Source: Bdellovibrionales bacterium (GTDB lineage: Bacteria; Bdellovibrionota; Bdellovibrionia; Bdellovibrionales; UBA1609). Taken from it: a stretch of 64,000 bases of DNA. Every line of letters starts with the position of its first letter. The first letter of the stretch is position 1. Positions 18,001 to 24,000 of the stretch are shown piece by piece. The stretch spans positions 800,001 to 864,000 of the forward strand of contig CBDHDF010000002.1 in the NCBI GenBank assembly GCA_965261545.1, given 5' to 3'. A program made the position numbers.

Positions 18001-21000
18001 AAATTTCATTGAGAGGAGCCAAGAAATGGGCATAAGAGCTTTTAACAAGTTGCTTCAGTAAAACAGTAAGTACAAAAAGAGATATCGCAAAAAAAATCAA
18101 AATAGTCGCTCTGTCTGCAGTTGATTCCCAATGAAGAGAGGAAAGAAGTGAAGGTGCGATTTCGTAGGTATAGTAAATAATTCCACCAACGGCAATAATT
18201 GTCCAAAGAATGGCATACAAGGAGTGAGATTTACGCAAATGATGAAAAGACCATTTATCATTTGATTCGTAATCCATAAATTTTGAATAACTTTCTAGGA
18301 GCCAAGACACTTGATTAAAATGATCATCGTTGCTAAAACGCTTGAACAATTGGCTTATATCACCGTAACCAAAGGGATTTAAATTGTAGATAAAGAGAAT
18401 AAATGCGACAAGATAGACTTGCATCAAGAGCCAATGCTCGATTCCAAAAAATGAGAGAAGATAAGTAAATAAGAAATAACAAGGTATACTACAAAGGAAA
18501 TACAAACCTACGCCCAGACGATTTGAATAAGACAGTACAGCCTCGAAACTCACATGGACATACAGGCAAAGTCCATTAAAAAGAAGCCTCACATTATAAG
18601 CATTTCCTAGTAGCAAAAGTTGTAAACCCAATTGCATAATGTACTTTAAACTCAAAAAAAGTGATAAGCAAAATAGCAAACTCAATCCGCTTTGCCAGTA
18701 GCTCCCCCCTGCCACTAAAAAACCATTAAAAATTTCCAACAAAGGAAATTGAGAAGCTGCAAAAAGGGAAAACAAAAGAATGGCCACTGAAAATAAATAA
18801 AAGCATAGATGATAAGCCCTAGAACACACAATGGGACGAATGGAAAACTGACGAAACGGTTTAGATACTTCTAGAAAGTTATCCAGCCATGAAAACCATC
18901 CTGTGTGGGGGCTCAAAGAAGTATTATCAAGCTTGGCACTATTTTCTAAAAATCCCTTATCCTTAAGGCGTGATAAAGACTTCATCAACATGCCAAAATG
19001 AAAGGTCTTCTGAGCCCCATGGCTCTTCGCCACAATCTCTGGCAGAGTTCTCTTTCCATTGAAGTAAATCAGAAAGTGAAGAGCATGAATAGGAAGAAAA
19101 ACATACCTTACATCTGATTTAAGAAGAATCTGATCGTTGTGAAAAGATAGTTCGGAGGGACGAAGCTTTGGACGAAATTCCTCTAAACTAGGCATAGTTC
19201 AACCTTCTCCAATAATCATAAAGACGCTCTCGAAGATTTTCCAATCCATAAGTGGGGTTTTGAAAGTTAGAAAAACATATAATCAATTCAGCAACTCGCT
19301 CTCGACTCTCAACTCGCTTTTTCTTCTGATCCTTAGATTCATAGATTTCCCCACTCTGATTCAGAGTTATTTCATCATTATCCATTTTAAATACAATCAA
19401 CCCATTTTGATAAATAATAAGAGTCTCCCCCTTGAAGCTCACCCAAACCTCCTCGGCTTCACAGGTAAAGGAACTCCCCTTAAGAGAAATAAATTGAAAT
19501 CTCTGCCCTGCAAGCTTTGGCAAAAGACACTGACTGAGCTTCTTTTTAAGTTCAGAACTGATATCTTTAAACTTTAAATGAGTGCGAAGTTTATAGTTTG
19601 CAACAGCTCTCACTCGGGTATGAAAGGACAACTGCCCGGGCCACCTCAATTCAATTTCTAAGTTGCTACCTGAGTCCTCTGAGTCATTGGGGACAAGCCC
19701 TAGCCCTGTCATACTAATGTTGTAAACCCTCATGGTTTGTCCATGAATAAGAACCTGTGGGAGATAACCAAGGTGCCCCCAAGGAGGGTAACAGATGCGT
19801 AGCTGCCCACGTCTCTCTATATTATTGAAGGAGGCCAGTGATGCCATGGAAATCTCTGCCTCTTTATGCCTTTTGGCATAATCCAACCAAGATGTGACAA
19901 AATGGTCCATATTCCCCCACATTTTCTTGAGTAGTTTTTTAAATAGCCTCTAGAGCCGCTTCCATCGTTCAGCTATTAACGCTTGAGGCCCAGGCTCCTC
20001 CGGCCCTTCTTATTGTCTACGAAATGAGGCCAACTGCATAGGATTTATAAACAATGGAACCTTTTGATCGGAATATTTACGTGATGCGTTATTATTTTGA
20101 CATCACCATTTCGTCAAACTATTTTGCCAGATCATAGTTGTCGAGAAAACAAAGTGTTGTAAAATGATGAGAATATGAACACAAGCTCAAAGAAAACAAC
20201 TCCGCTCTGGCAACCTCTCTGCCGGGGAGATATTGTAGATATCGTTGCTCCCGCCTCGGCGAGCACCAAAGAGGGTCTTGAAGAAGCCATTGGCTTCGTG
20301 GAAAGGTGGGGCCTTCACCCTAGGTGGCCCGCCGATATCTTTGGCCCCGATGAACTTTGTGCCAACTCCGACCAAAAGCGCTTTGAACACCTGAAAAAAG
20401 CCCTTCAGGCCAAAGATTCACAAATCCTTTGGAGCCTCCGTGGGGGTTGGGGCTCAGCTCGCCTCATGCCCATGCTCACCACTCTCAAATCCACAACACC
20501 CACAAAAATATTTATCGGCTATAGCGACATGACCACCCTTCACATGTTCTTTAACGATGCTTGGAAATGGCCCACCCTCCACAGCTCCATGCTCTACGAA
20601 TTAAGCACAGAGGAAGGAAGGCAACAAGAATCCACTGAGCTTCGAAAACTTCTTTTTGGATTTACTTCTTCTTTGGAGTACAAAAACCTTAAGCCCTTAA
20701 ACAAACTCGCTCGACAAGAGAAAATCATTCATGCTCCCATTGTAGGAGGGAATCTCACCGTACTCCAATCGAGTCTTGGTACACCATGGCAAGTTTTACC
20801 CAAGGGAAAGATTTTAGCTCTTGAAGATGTCAATGAAGAGGCCTACCGAGTGGATCGCATGCTGTTTCAATTGGAACAAGCGGGCTTTTTTAAAGGTGTT
20901 TGCGCCATTATTTTTGGAAGCTTTACTGGAGGCAAAGAAAAAAACTCATCCCTCCTCTGGAAGGTCATTAAAAACCGCTTTGCCAAAGAAGCTTCTGTTC

Positions 21001-24000
21001 CCATTTTAAAGGACCTGCCCTTTGGCCATGGTCCCCAGAGAAGGCCCCTCCCCCTACTCAGCACCGCCCAACTGCAACTCGGCCCTTCTTGCGCCCTCCA
21101 TGTCCAAGTTCCAATAAGCTCTGAATCTTACTCTCACAACAAAGTCCCACTATGGGCCGAGGAAAGCCCCCCCCCCCTCAAAAAGGGAGCCTCTGTTCAT
21201 TTCATGGGAATATGTGGTACAGCCATGGCAAGCCTTGCGGGTCTTTTCTTGGAACAGGGATTTCGAGTCACAGGAAGCGATCAAAATGTCTACCCTCCCA
21301 TGTCCACTCAATTGGAAAACTTAGGCATTTCTATCATGGAAGGCTACAAGGCCTCCAACCTAGATCACAACCCCGACTTGGTCATTGTAGGCAATGTCAT
21401 CTCCAAGGACTTTGAAGAAGCCCAAGCCCTCTTAAAATCAAAAATACCCTATACGAGCCTCCCCAAGGCCCTTGGAAAATTTATTATTGCCGACCGCCAC
21501 TCCGTGGTTATTTCGGGAACCCATGGAAAAACCACCACCACGGCTATGATGTCCTGGGTGGCAGAAGTCCAAGGGCGACGGCCTGGATTTCTTATAGGCG
21601 GGATTCCACACAATTTTGAAAAATCCTTTCGCCCCCCCCAAGGAAACTGGTTTGTTATTGAAGGAGATGAATACGACACCGCCTTCTTTGATAAGAATCC
21701 CAAGTTTATTTACTACCACCCTCAATATGTAATTCTCACAAGTATTGAATTTGATCACGCCGATATCTACTCCAACCTCGACGACATTAAATTAGCTTTT
21801 AAAGAACTGATACAAAGAATTCCCATGGATGGTTTGCTTGTGGCCAACTCAGATGACCCTCATGTCATGGACATCGCCCAAAACCACCCTCGCCTAGTGA
21901 CCTTTGGCCTCCATTCGGGAGATTACAGAGCCAGATGTCGAAAAGCCCTCCTAGGGCGCAATCAACTGGCTGTGGAGTACAAGGGACAAAGTCTTGGCGA
22001 TCTCGCCATCAAACTTTTTGGAAAACACAATACAATGAATGCATTGGCCACCTTGGCCCTCTCCCTTGAACTCGGTTGGAAAAAATCAAAAGTCCTCCAA
22101 GCCCTCGCTGACTTTAAGGGTGTAAAAAGACGACAGGAAGTCATCGGTGAGTTCAATGGTATCACTGTGATTGAAGACTTTGCTCACCACCCCACATCCG
22201 TTCAACTCACCATAGAAGCCATGAGAGAAGGGTATCCTCAAAGAAGACTCATCAGTATTTTTGAACCAAGGTCCACCACATCGCGAAGAAAAATCTTTCA
22301 GGATGACTATGCAAAAGCTCTTCAAGATTCGGATCTTGTTATTATTCCCCAAGTGACTGATTTTCACAGAGTTCCTAAATCTGAAAGGTTTTCCTCCGCC
22401 CAACTGGTCAAAGGCCTCAACAGGGAGGGGACTTTTTCTGTGCTCAAAGAAGACGCTCAAAGTATTGTTGAGTTTCTAACTCATGAGGTAAATCCCGGTG
22501 ATGTGGTGCTCATTATGAGCAACGGTGGCTTTGATGATATTTACACCCAACTCAACAAGGCGTTGGCTTGACTCCTCCCCCACCTTCCTTCTCTTTTGCA
22601 CCTTTAAAATCCAAAGTTGTTGTTATCGACCCTGGACACGGTCACACCCAAGAAACATTTCGCCAAGGCCCCAAGGGGGAACGGGAGGAGTGGATCAATT
22701 TGAGAGTGGCTCTTCTTCTAGAAAAATACCTGTTACAAAGGGGAGCCAAACCACTTCTCACTCGACGTACCGATGTGGATGTTCCATTGGCTCAAAGAGT
22801 TAAACTCACTCTCTCTGCAAAGGCCGACCTCTTTGTCTCCATTCATCACAATAGTTCCGACCCCGTGGACCCTCTTTTGAACCACCCCAGTGTTTTCATC
22901 CACGACGCCGTCAATAAAAGTTCTCCCAACCAAAGTCTTGCCTTTTGTCTAGGGAAGCAGTTTTCCAAGGCAAGAAAAATGGACACTTTTATCGATTCAG
23001 ATCAAATTTTGTTTAAAGAGGGCCTTTATGTTCTAAGGAGACTCCATGGACAAGTCCCTGCTATCCTAGGAGAGTACAGTTTTTTTAGTCACCCCGAAGA
23101 AGAAGAGCGCCTTCAAAGGAAAGAGTATTGTCAGCAAGAGGCCCACGCCTACTTGGTGGGCATTAAAGATTTTCTTTCTGTCCACTCTACCAACTGCTCT
23201 ATGACTTCTTCCCCTTCGCCCCTTTTTCCAGAAAGCTTGAGAACCCTTTATATGAAGCGACGACAGGCTCTTCTCACTCCTGCAACACAGACCAAGGTAG
23301 ATCAGATGAGTCCCTCTTCCAGGATTTCCCAAGATTCTCAAGTCTCCCAAACTCCTCAAAATTCTCAAGGATTTCAAGGTTCTCAAGCTTCCAATGTTTC
23401 CAAGACCTCTGTAGAGAAAATGTCAATTTCCTGGAGAAGTTATTTTGACCAAGCTCAAGAACTCGCCAAACAAGGTGATTTTTCTTTGGCTCAGCAGGAG
23501 TTTTTAAACTCCCTCGCCCTTTTAAGAAATCATCCTGAATTTCTCACAGTTTTTCAATTTTTGGCCCAACAAGGTCTGGCTCCTCTTTCCTCTGGTCCAG
23601 CTCTTCGCCACCTCGTTGCTTTTCAAGACATTCAAAATGAAGGCTTCGGAGAAAAAATTATAAAAGAAAATACAAACGACCGATAAGTCACTAAGCATGA
23701 AACCCAAAGAACAGTGGCTCCGCCCATTTAACATATCAGAAACAAACCTAGAGCAATGGTATAAAGAGATTCCTTCAGGAACTTCACTGACCTATTGGGC
23801 TCTTGAAACTCATAAAATCTCCGAGCAAGAGTATTTCACTTGGGCCAGGGATCACTTTGCCATCCCAAGCCTCAATGAAAAAGCATCTTGTGTCACATTG
23901 AATTTTGTACTTTGGAAAGAGCTTCGCCATATCTCATATTGGTCCTGTGAAATGCTTCCCCTCGCCGAGTGGGATGGGACTATTTTTATTATTTGCATAG

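What a model noticed while it worked through the whole genome (the two positions that open the first line are those of the whole stretch)
20175..22571. No de novo route to UDP-MurNAc-tripeptide: a predator-like bacterium that must build its wall from scavenged muropeptide [...]
Six-frame searches find no murA, murB, murC, murE, glutamate racemase or diaminopimelate epimerase (nor any DHDPS/DapB family) in this genome, although murF, mraY, murD, murG, ftsW, ddl, alr and the penicillin-binding proteins are kept; what is kept besides is a full salvage set: an Mpl ligase fused to an LD-carboxypeptidase (this locus), an AmgK-like MurNAc kinase next to a nucleotidyltransferase, AmpG, NagZ and NamZ. 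I read this as obligate peptidoglycan scavenging: MurNAc and the L-Ala-D-Glu-mDAP tripeptide taken from other bacteria (prey) are joined by AmgK/MurU and Mpl, and MurF then completes the precursor. New would be a bacterium with a normal sacculus machinery whose whole cytoplasm [...]
Evidence so far: search_genomes on the own genome: MurB_C PF02873 and FAD_binding_4 PF01565 no match; murA TIGR01072 no match; murE TIGR01085 only cross-hits of 64 bits or less to murD, mpl, murF, cut-off 257; murC TIGR01082 hits only g00757 (341.7 bits), which NCBIfam and Swiss-Prot name Mpl (38% to E. coli Mpl; calls 126,132). Pfam table: 0 genes with DHDPS, DapB_N, DapB_C, DAP_epimerase, Asp_Glu_race, MurB_C; 3 Mur ligases in all (g00208 murF, g00757 mpl, g01376 murD). 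MurB_C is present in 104 of 108 other genomes of the family (81 of 82 good ones; call 129). With the same searches three relatives (G275, G277, G302) have murA, murC (about 500 bits) plus mpl (309-333 bits), murE, murI and dapF, while a sec [...]
(Added by a program. Inside this text positions count along the whole contig: contig position 800,001 is position 1 of the stretch shown here. "Call 12" and the like, gene names such as g00115 and contig names such as C1 are that model's own, and its searches are not shown. The text may have been shortened before it was handed on; [...] marks where a part breaks off. The agent that wrote the report below was given it as the finding of a first reader that could run no searches.)

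Follow-up and report, generated by a model that had tools for sequence, protein, structure and literature searches.

The report
Cell wall built from scavenged parts
This Bdellovibrio-related bacterium has lost almost every enzyme that makes the sugar and the first three amino acids of its cell-wall building block, yet keeps the wall-building and recycling machinery, so it most likely assembles its wall from fragments of other bacteria's walls, a deeper dependence than the known sugar-only case.

Summary
In this Bdellovibrionales genome (G000) murA, murB, murC, murE, murI and dapA/B/F are missing without remnants. murF, ddl, alr, mraY, murG, murJ, both SEDS-PBP pairs and class A PBPs are intact, most at normal divergence. 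Of 280 order genomes at least 90% complete, only G000 and G008 lack both murE and murB. Gene scars lie inside contigs, and a three-gene tree rejects one shared origin (AU p 0.018; RpoB alone 0.39). The locus is an LdcA-Mpl fusion plus an amidase without signal peptide. AmgK/MurU-like genes, AmpG, NagZ, NamZ and Opp complete a plausible route: scavenged MurNAc plus tripeptide, then Mpl, then MurF. No activity was tested. 'Predator' is not supported: there is no flagellum and no LD-transpeptidase, and 42% of the DNA is repeats; this looks more like a host-associated scavenger. murD is kept and unexplained. It is unusually conserved across the order, and both genomes have lost its substrate-binding Asn138 (80 of 81 relatives keep it). 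A third lineage (four genomes) lacks only murC, which suggests Mpl can replace MurC. The scan had not reported this on other DNA. Closest known: Tannerella forsythia, which lacks MurA/B only.

The parts
20175..22571 (+). LdcA-Mpl fusion gene, 798 aa
   Evidence: same fusion in a second assembly; separate adjacent genes in relatives G008, G038 and G030, with one gene between them in G009
20235..21074 (+). S66 LD-carboxypeptidase domain (aa 21-300); Ser117, Glu217, His285 kept
   Evidence: Pfam PF02016/PF17676; alignment to P. aeruginosa PA5198; that these three residues form the triad is recalled
21167..21177 (+). Run of 11 C in the interdomain linker, with an out-of-frame ATG at 21152
   Evidence: linker identical in the second assembly
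21195..22565 (+). Mpl murein peptide ligase domain (aa 341-797) with TAFFDK, RR, FAHH, EPRS and SNG motifs
   Evidence: TIGR01081 above cut-off; best solved relatives are Mpl 3HN7 and 3EAG; motifs from PMC3060825
22568..23686 (+). Amidase_3 N-acetylmuramoyl-L-alanine amidase with no signal peptide; probably the cytoplasmic enzyme that splits sugar from peptide
   Evidence: catalytic domain begins at residue 18; the G038 ortholog follows mpl and begins directly with the domain; cytoplasmic location inferred
58896..59963 (-). IMPDH/GMP-reductase-like gene whose ortholog precedes murI in G009; here it is followed by an unrelated phosphatase gene 56 bp away (possible murI scar)
   Evidence: this arrangement was seen in 1 of 2 relatives examined, so weak

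Best explanation
An obligate peptidoglycan scavenger. Wall fragments of other meso-DAP bacteria enter by AmpG (disaccharides, muropeptides) and an Opp-type ABC system (peptides). In the cytoplasm NagZ and NamZ free MurNAc, and the amidase next to this gene splits off the stem peptide. AmgK and MurU turn MurNAc into UDP-MurNAc, in place of MurA/B. The fused LdcA trims tetrapeptide to tripeptide, and Mpl joins L-Ala-D-Glu-mDAP to UDP-MurNAc in one step, in place of MurC, D, E, MurI and the Dap pathway. MurF adds home-made D-Ala-D-Ala (Alr, Ddl). MraY, MurG (UDP-GlcNAc from GlmS/M/U), MurJ and the PBPs then build a normal wall. Shown: the gene losses, the presence and intact motifs of the kept genes, the operon. 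Inferred: every enzyme activity, the transporter substrates, the existence of a sacculus, and the source of fragments (more likely neighbours in a dense, probably host-associated community than invaded prey). MurD is most likely kept for a second, non-canonical role tied to MraY; this step is a guess.
For: Losses fit the bypass exactly: everything upstream of UDP-MurNAc-tripeptide except MurD is gone and everything downstream is kept. The same set (murA, B, C, E, murI, dapA, dapF) is missing in G008, a 2-contig genome; only these two of 280 lack both murE and murB (chance overlap 8e-4, or 0.03 with G000 left out). Scars lie inside contigs: prfA-prmC-murA in 6 of 6 relatives checked, while in G000 prmC ends 27 bp from an unrelated gene 6.5 kb from the contig end; in G008 ftsI abuts murF where relatives have murE, and murG is followed by an unrelated gene. 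Kept genes diverge no faster than RpoB and PBP, Alr and MurF motifs are intact. Each of the two genomes has an amidase-ldcA-mpl cluster and an amgK-murU-like pair. No other source of D-Glu was found (no Aminotran_4 family), no further Mur ligase and no further Ddl-like ligase in G000. Mpl prefers the mDAP tripeptide about 370-fold over L-Ala in P. arcticus (PMC3060825), and LdcA prevents dead-end tetrapeptide precursors (PMC13046382). RpoB+MurD+MraY reject one origin (p-AU 0.018).
Against: MurD is kept with nearly all catalytic residues and an intact D-Glu pocket, which this route does not need. AmgK-like and MurU-like proteins score far below the family cut-offs (132 of 550; 85 of 250), and the MurU-like protein is longer than MurU. 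G008 has no AmpG match, so its sugar importer is unknown. No AnmK, so terminal anhydro-MurNAc from its own lytic transglycosylases would be lost. The genome is a 96.8% complete assembly in 11 contigs. RpoB alone does not separate one loss from two (p-AU 0.39), and G008 is a long branch. Four relatives that lack murC but keep murD and murE suggest this family's Mpl can add L-Ala alone, which weakens the assumption that it is a strict tripeptide ligase.
Confidence: 0.7

Rival explanations
1. Stepwise route with hidden parts. MurNAc is salvaged, Mpl acts as MurC, MurD adds scavenged D-Glu (or a gamma-D-Glu-mDAP dipeptide, which would make MurE unnecessary), and an unrecognised enzyme or MurD itself replaces MurE.
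For: Explains why MurD is kept with its ATP and D-Glu sites. Genus g30 (4 of 4 genomes, two of them single contigs) lacks murC but keeps murA, B, D, E and mpl. E. coli mpl overexpression complements a murC mutant (PMC3060825).
Against: No fourth Mur ligase and no second Ddl-like ligase. The pocket that holds the gamma-carboxylate of D-Glu is unchanged. The UMA-binding Asn138 is lost in exactly these two genomes. LdcA is kept and fused, which matters only for peptide salvage.
Confidence: 0.12
2. A host or partner cell supplies ready-made UDP-MurNAc-peptide, as in the mealybug-Moranella mosaic (recalled), or the bacterium takes it from prey cytoplasm; the recycling genes then only tidy up.
For: Loss of flagellum and LD-transpeptidases, 42% repeats and many PARCEL-repeat ORFs point to a host-restricted life. 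Type IV pilus genes remain.
Against: The whole sugar-and-peptide salvage chain is kept at normal divergence, which import of nucleotide precursors would make redundant. No importer for such precursors was looked for.
Confidence: 0.07
3. The wall is being given up; the remaining genes are relics on the way out.
For: The dcw cluster is broken into six pieces, the genome is full of mobile repeats, and several proteins carry low-complexity insertions.
Against: No pseudogene remnants of the lost genes, yet the kept genes examined are full length with intact motifs and not accelerated. The same subset is kept in G008.
Confidence: 0.06
4. Assembly or binning gaps hide the genes.
For: 11 contigs, 96.8% complete. 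Single genes are missing in other drafts: murA in G018 and G020, murB in three fragmented genomes, the adjacent pair murE-murF in G160.
Against: At least five unlinked loci would have to be missed in two genomes. Flanking genes are present inside contigs. 14 of 22 contig ends lie wholly in repeats. G160 shows what a gap looks like: one adjacent pair lost, the rest of the pathway present.
Confidence: 0.04

Closest known systems
Tannerella forsythia MurNAc auxotrophy (PMC7670621, passages read)
   Same: No MurA/MurB; MurNAc taken from other bacteria's walls through AmpG and routed by AmgK and MurU; NamZ present.
   Different: T. forsythia lacks only the sugar step and builds its own stem peptide (retention of MurC-F is recalled). 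Here MurC, MurE, MurI and the Dap pathway are gone as well, so the tripeptide must also be imported. No MurQ catabolic branch was found here.
E. coli / Psychrobacter tripeptide recycling: AmpG, NagZ, AmpD, LdcA, Mpl, Opp-MppA (PMC3060825, PMC13046382, passages read)
   Same: Same enzymes and the same shortcut to UDP-MurNAc-tripeptide.
   Different: There it is an optional side route beside a full de novo pathway. Here it would be the only route. LdcA and Mpl are fused, an Amidase_3 stands in for AmpD in G000, and there is no AnmK or MurQ.
Pseudomonas AmgK-MurU shortcut (recalled; NCBIfam models)
   Same: Adjacent kinase and nucleotidyltransferase genes with AmgK and MurU as best family matches.
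   Different: Scores are far below the cut-offs, no AnmK was found, and the route would be essential rather than a back-up.
Mealybug-Moranella peptidoglycan mosaic (recalled, not read)
   Same: A bacterium that lacks early mur genes but keeps the late wall machinery.
   Different: There host nuclear genes supply the missing Mur steps. Here MurF, Ddl, Alr and a salvage chain remain in the bacterium.
Reduced, non-motile Bdellovibrionota of sponges (PMC9944714, passages read)
   Same: Same phylum, motility lost, predation uncertain.
   Different: The passages report no loss of mur genes. The reduced non-flagellated genera of this family keep murA, murB and murE. G000 keeps type IV pilus genes and is inflated by repeats. 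Its habitat was not determined.

Membership tests
Mpl (murein peptide ligase) | TIGR01081 above cut-off and above the MurC score | tested here: met
   407.9 against cut-off 388.7; murC 339.6; true MurC genes of the family have E 1e-122 to 1e-158 against 3e-101 here
Mpl (murein peptide ligase) | (S/T)AFFDKRSK motif and C-domain residues RR, FAHH, EPRS, SNG | tested here: met
   TAFFDKNPK, RR, FAHH, EPRSTT, SNG; the RS of the first motif is NP here and VP in most relatives
Mpl (murein peptide ligase) | Ligates the mDAP tripeptide to UDP-MurNAc | not testable with these tools
   needs an enzyme assay
LdcA (S66 LD-carboxypeptidase) | S66 N and C domains with Ser-Glu-His triad | tested here: met
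   triad identity recalled; below the narrow NCBIfam cut-off (114.6 of 378)
AmgK | NCBIfam equivalog cut-off | tested here: not met
   132.4 of 550 in G000, 101.2 of 550 in G008; the only family matches listed are AmgK models
AmgK | APH-fold kinase motifs and adjacency to a nucleotidyltransferase | tested here: met
   HRDYHSRN and VIDFQDAR motifs; same gene pair in G007, G009, G034, G008
MurU | NCBIfam cut-off; minimal nucleotidyltransferase of about 225 aa | tested here: not met
   85.3 of 250; 386 aa with an insertion and a C-terminal extension shared with relatives; best family match is still MurU; role inferred from the gene pair
Tannerella-type MurNAc auxotroph | No MurA and MurB, with AmpG/AmgK/MurU salvage | tested here: met
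   (AmgK and MurU only as probable orthologs)
Tannerella-type MurNAc auxotroph | Stem peptide made de novo by MurC-F | tested here: not met
   murC, murE, murI, dap absent
Tannerella-type MurNAc auxotroph | Growth depends on external MurNAc | not testable with these tools
   needs a culture
Periplasmic Bdellovibrio-type predator | Flagellum | tested here: not met
   FlgI absent; flgB, C, H, I, K absent
Periplasmic Bdellovibrio-type predator | Expanded LD-transpeptidases and extra DacB for prey-wall remodelling | tested here: not met
   0 YkuD against 14 in G116; one DacB; roles from PMC11870529
Periplasmic Bdellovibrio-type predator | Type IV pili | tested here: met
   PilB/C/Q-like genes and pilin motifs
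Canonical MurD | ATP, Mg and D-Glu site residues | tested here: met
   K115, E157, H183, K198, R302, D317, T321, S415, R425 equivalents kept
Canonical MurD | UMA-binding Asn138 | tested here: not met
   Ser in G000, Gly in G008, Asn in 80 of 81 others; role from PMC9780078

The most novel reading that the evidence does not exclude
A walled bacterium with no de novo route to any part of MurNAc-L-Ala-D-Glu-mDAP, arisen twice independently in one Bdellovibrionales family, in which the optional recycling enzyme Mpl has become the sole and essential source of the wall precursor. A third lineage uses Mpl in place of MurC. MurD has been kept each time because in this order it has a second job, probably as a partner or regulator at the MraY step, and it sheds its substrate-binding Asn once the ligase job is gone.
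Probability: 0.4. Interest if true: 0.88.

Novelty: new variant of a known kind. Interest (0 to 1): 0.76.

Why it matters
MurA-MurF are treated as near-universal and essential in walled bacteria and are long-standing drug targets; Mpl is treated as dispensable. A natural genome with the order reversed shows that recycling alone may sustain a wall, extends the Tannerella case from the sugar to the whole sugar-tripeptide, and predicts a strict dependence on mDAP-type neighbours and indifference to MurA inhibition. It suggests a culture supplement (MurNAc plus tripeptide, or digested Gram-negative wall) for an uncultured lineage. It also exposes a testable puzzle in a well-studied order: why MurD and MraY are far more conserved than the other wall enzymes in Bdellovibrionales, and what MurD does besides adding D-Glu.

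Tried and rejected
G160 (another family) looked like a third case because it lacks murE; it also lacks the adjacent murF but has murB, murC, murD and mpl, so I treat it as one assembly gap. A partial hit next to the dapF position looked like a remnant but is a ferredoxin domain. The idea that the fusion is a homopolymer miscall was dropped after a second assembly showed it. Other sources of D-Glu: no Aminotran_4 family in G000 or G008; the MurL search found nothing but had no positive control, so it is inconclusive. RpoB alone could not place G008. The MraY-MurD complex prediction returned no verdict (score 0.00, controls not folded); it is evidence neither way. Promoter and terminator scans were at chance level. 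The shared MurD change is only suggestive: two genomes with 4 and 13 changes among 151 columns share one with probability 0.31; the weight comes from the residue's known role, which I noted after seeing it. Literature searches for a precedent and for a MurD-MraY link returned none in their listings; the library lacks most subscription papers and I read no supplements, so a table entry could have been missed. No search beyond the order was made.

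
Full report
The locus. Window 20175-22571 (+) is one 798-codon frame with an S66 LD-carboxypeptidase at residues 21-300 and a Mur ligase at 341-784. It passes the NCBIfam Mpl cut-off (407.9 of 388.7) and only just passes MurC (339.6 of 335.1). Its best solved relatives are Mpl structures. It keeps the Mpl-specific TAFFDK motif and the C-domain residues listed in PMC3060825 (passages and sections 17-18 read), and the LdcA Ser117, Glu217 and His285 (triad identity recalled). The next gene is an Amidase_3 without a signal peptide. In G038 ldcA, mpl and this amidase are three separate adjacent genes; in G008 an AmpD-type amidase precedes ldcA and mpl. 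The fusion depends on an 11-C run, but a second assembly has the same 798-aa protein with 5 differences, so it is real. Among the 100 Mpl matches listed, only G000, G030 and G051 have frames over 600 aa; G030's extra part is a phosphatase and G051 was not examined. MurD relatives of 61-72% identity carry Bdellovibrionales names or unclassified labels, which places the genome in that order.

The losses are real. G000 has 4.32 Mb in 11 contigs, no N, 96.8% complete. murA is found in 105 of 109 family genomes, murE in 107 of 109 and in 277 of 280 order genomes at least 90% complete, murB in 275 of 280, and murC in 72 of 83 at a strict threshold. G000 and G008 (3.1 Mb, 2 contigs, 94%) lack all four, and are the only two of 280 lacking both murE and murB. 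The chance overlap is 8e-4, or 0.03 with G000 left out (this treats genomes as independent, which they are not). murI, dapF and dapA are absent from both, and present in 2, 3 and 3 of the 5 genomes searched (murI was also not found in G018). dapE, lysC, murQ, murP and ampD were not found in G000 with E. coli queries. Profiles built from relatives find no fragment of murA, murB, murI, dapA, dapB or dapF among all six-frame ORFs of 20 aa or more. Gene order argues against gaps. murA follows prfA-prmC in the 6 relatives checked, while in G000 prmC ends 27 bp from an unrelated gene, 6.5 kb inside the contig. G009 has a classical dcw cluster; in G008 ftsI abuts murF where murE should be, and murG is followed by an unrelated gene where murC and murB should be. 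In G000 the cluster is in six pieces. G160 serves as a control for a true gap: it lacks the adjacent murE and murF but has the rest.

What is kept. murF, mraY, murD, murG, ftsW, ftsI, ddl, ftsQ/A/Z, rodA, pbp2 and mreB/C are present, as are glmS, glmM, glmU, murJ, alr, mltG, dacB and three class A PBP-like genes, with catalytic motifs in place where checked. Their divergence from relatives with the full pathway is ordinary. G000 versus those relatives, against the mean among them: MraY 69 against 71%, MurD 71 against 75, MurF 42 against 46, MurG 43 against 45, FtsW 52 against 54, Mpl 59 against 59, RpoB 80 against 82 (3 to 11 rows per gene, two rows identical, which slightly raises the second figure). 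G008 is uniformly faster, RpoB included. For salvage, G000 has AmpG above cut-off, OppABC, one NagZ and NamZ without signal peptides and a second NagZ with a hydrophobic N-terminus, and an adjacent AmgK-like and MurU-like pair. That pair is far below the NCBIfam cut-offs but conserved as a pair in four relatives. These genes are ancestral in the family (Mpl in 99 of 109); what is new is that nothing else is left. No AnmK was found in 5 of 5 genomes of the order, no D-amino-acid transaminase family in G000 or G008, and no fourth Mur ligase. G008 has no AmpG match.

How it most likely works. Imported wall fragments are cut by NagZ, NamZ and the amidase into MurNAc and peptide. AmgK and MurU give UDP-MurNAc, LdcA trims tetrapeptide, Mpl attaches the tripeptide, and MurF adds D-Ala-D-Ala. 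In P. arcticus Mpl turns over the mDAP tripeptide at 260 per minute against 0.7 for L-Ala, and in E. coli loss of LdcA lets tetrapeptide precursors damage the wall (PMC13046382 passages), which gives a reason for the fusion. All activities here are inferred from family and context; none was measured.

One loss or two. RpoB alone is undecided (p-AU 0.39; 12 of 30 rows left out for speed). RpoB+MurD+MraY over 23 genomes (7 of 30 left out) put G000 with G038, G021 and G070 and put G008 among long branches, and reject the two as one clade (p-AU 0.018). The model was LG+G4, so long-branch pull remains a caveat. Two independent losses are more likely than one but not settled. A third lineage, genus g30 (4 of 4 genomes), has no murC-type gene by two searches and by gene order, but keeps murA, B, D, E and mpl; four other genomes checked had both murC and mpl. 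Mpl probably stands in for MurC there, as overexpressed E. coli mpl can.

The MurD puzzle. A pure Mpl route does not need MurD, yet both genomes keep it next to mraY. Across the order MurD and MraY are about 75 and 71% identical, against 45-58% for MurE, MurF, MurC, MurG and FtsW. Of 192 MurD columns conserved in at least 90% of 81 relatives, 87 are specific to the order when set against 66 outside MurDs; G000 keeps 85 and G008 75 of them. The ATP and D-Glu sites are intact, but the residue matching E. coli Asn138, which binds the UDP-MurNAc-L-Ala substrate (PMC9780078 passage), is Ser in G000 and Gly in G008 and Asn in 80 of 81 others, long-branch genomes included. It is the only near-invariant column changed in both; a shared change somewhere has probability 0.31 by chance, so this is a lead, not proof. 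My guess is a second, non-ligase role at the MraY step. The rival is a stepwise route with a hidden MurE substitute.

Lifestyle. 'Predator' is not supported. G000 has no flagellum (FlgI is present in 45 of 83 family genomes and absent from the reduced genera), no YkuD LD-transpeptidase (0 against 14 in G116 and 3 in G038) and one DacB; PMC11870529 (passages) ties extra copies of such enzymes to periplasmic predation. It keeps type IV pilus genes. 41.9% of its DNA lies in repeats of 500 bp or more, with up to about 200-fold overlap, and 31 ORFs carry two or more matches to a recalled PARCEL motif. Two earlier notes on this genome describe insertion sequences, which agrees. Non-motile, reduced Bdellovibrionota are described from sponges (PMC9944714 passages). 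A host-associated life among dense bacteria is my inference; the habitat was not determined.

Novelty. The parts are all known. The closest whole case is Tannerella forsythia, which lacks MurA and MurB and scavenges MurNAc (PMC7670621 passages; PMC10465942 passages). Five paper searches listed no bacterium that has also lost MurC, MurE, MurI and Dap while keeping Mpl and MurF; passages of a review of intracellular bacteria do not mention Mpl (PMC5814848). The library lacks most subscription papers and no supplements were read. The scan's own index had no such finding on other DNA. Verdict: a real and surprising new variant of wall scavenging, interest 0.76.

Noticed in passing
L305-L312 (G092, G093, G094) and L318 (G091), genus g30: Four small genomes (1.3-1.5 Mb) lack murC but keep murA, murB, murD, murE and mpl; Mpl may serve as MurC.
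   Followed up: partly
L038:7605-10639 (G000 C7 mraY-murD) and 81 relatives: MraY and MurD are far more conserved across Bdellovibrionales than other wall enzymes, with 87 order-specific conserved MurD columns.
   Followed up: partly
L038:8690-9259: G000 MurD has an open 190-codon low-complexity N-terminal extension with no family match; other proteins (MurF, FtsI, MurU-like, the amidase) also carry insertions.
   Followed up: partly
whole genome G000: 41.9% of bases lie in repeats of 500 bp or more at 95% identity or more, in 423 blocks; some multi-kb genes are duplicated exactly.
   Followed up: partly
window 54012-55940 and about 30 other ORFs: PARCEL-repeat surface proteins are numerous, some with 17-30 motif matches.
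   Followed up: no
window 23697-25202: 501-aa gene after the amidase with long internal acidic repeats and no Pfam or NCBIfam match.
   Followed up: no
window 31896-33311: One frame joins formyltransferase domains to ribulose-phosphate 3-epimerase; may be another fusion of adjacent genes.
   Followed up: no
L289:7654-9954 (G030): Mpl fused at its C-terminus to a histidine phosphatase domain.
   Followed up: no
L036:10949-12001 (G009): A PBP4B/beta-lactamase-like gene lies between ldcA and mpl in G009; no match in G000.
   Followed up: no
family f1: FlgI is absent from 38 of 83 genomes, in whole genera (g3, g8, g10, g13, g17, g26-g30 and G000), so a large non-flagellated part of this family exists.
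   Followed up: partly
L037:9257-10840 and L032:9152-10549: MurF of G000 and G008 both read YNS where relatives have YNA near the D-Ala-D-Ala site; may be chance.
   Followed up: no
G018: No murA or murI match, though murB, murE, dapA and dapF are present; 170 contigs, so probably gaps.
   Followed up: no
whole genome G000: folP, lexA, plsX and lysC were not found with E. coli queries.
   Followed up: no
window 25554-26699: IS481-like transposase directly after the operon.
   Followed up: no
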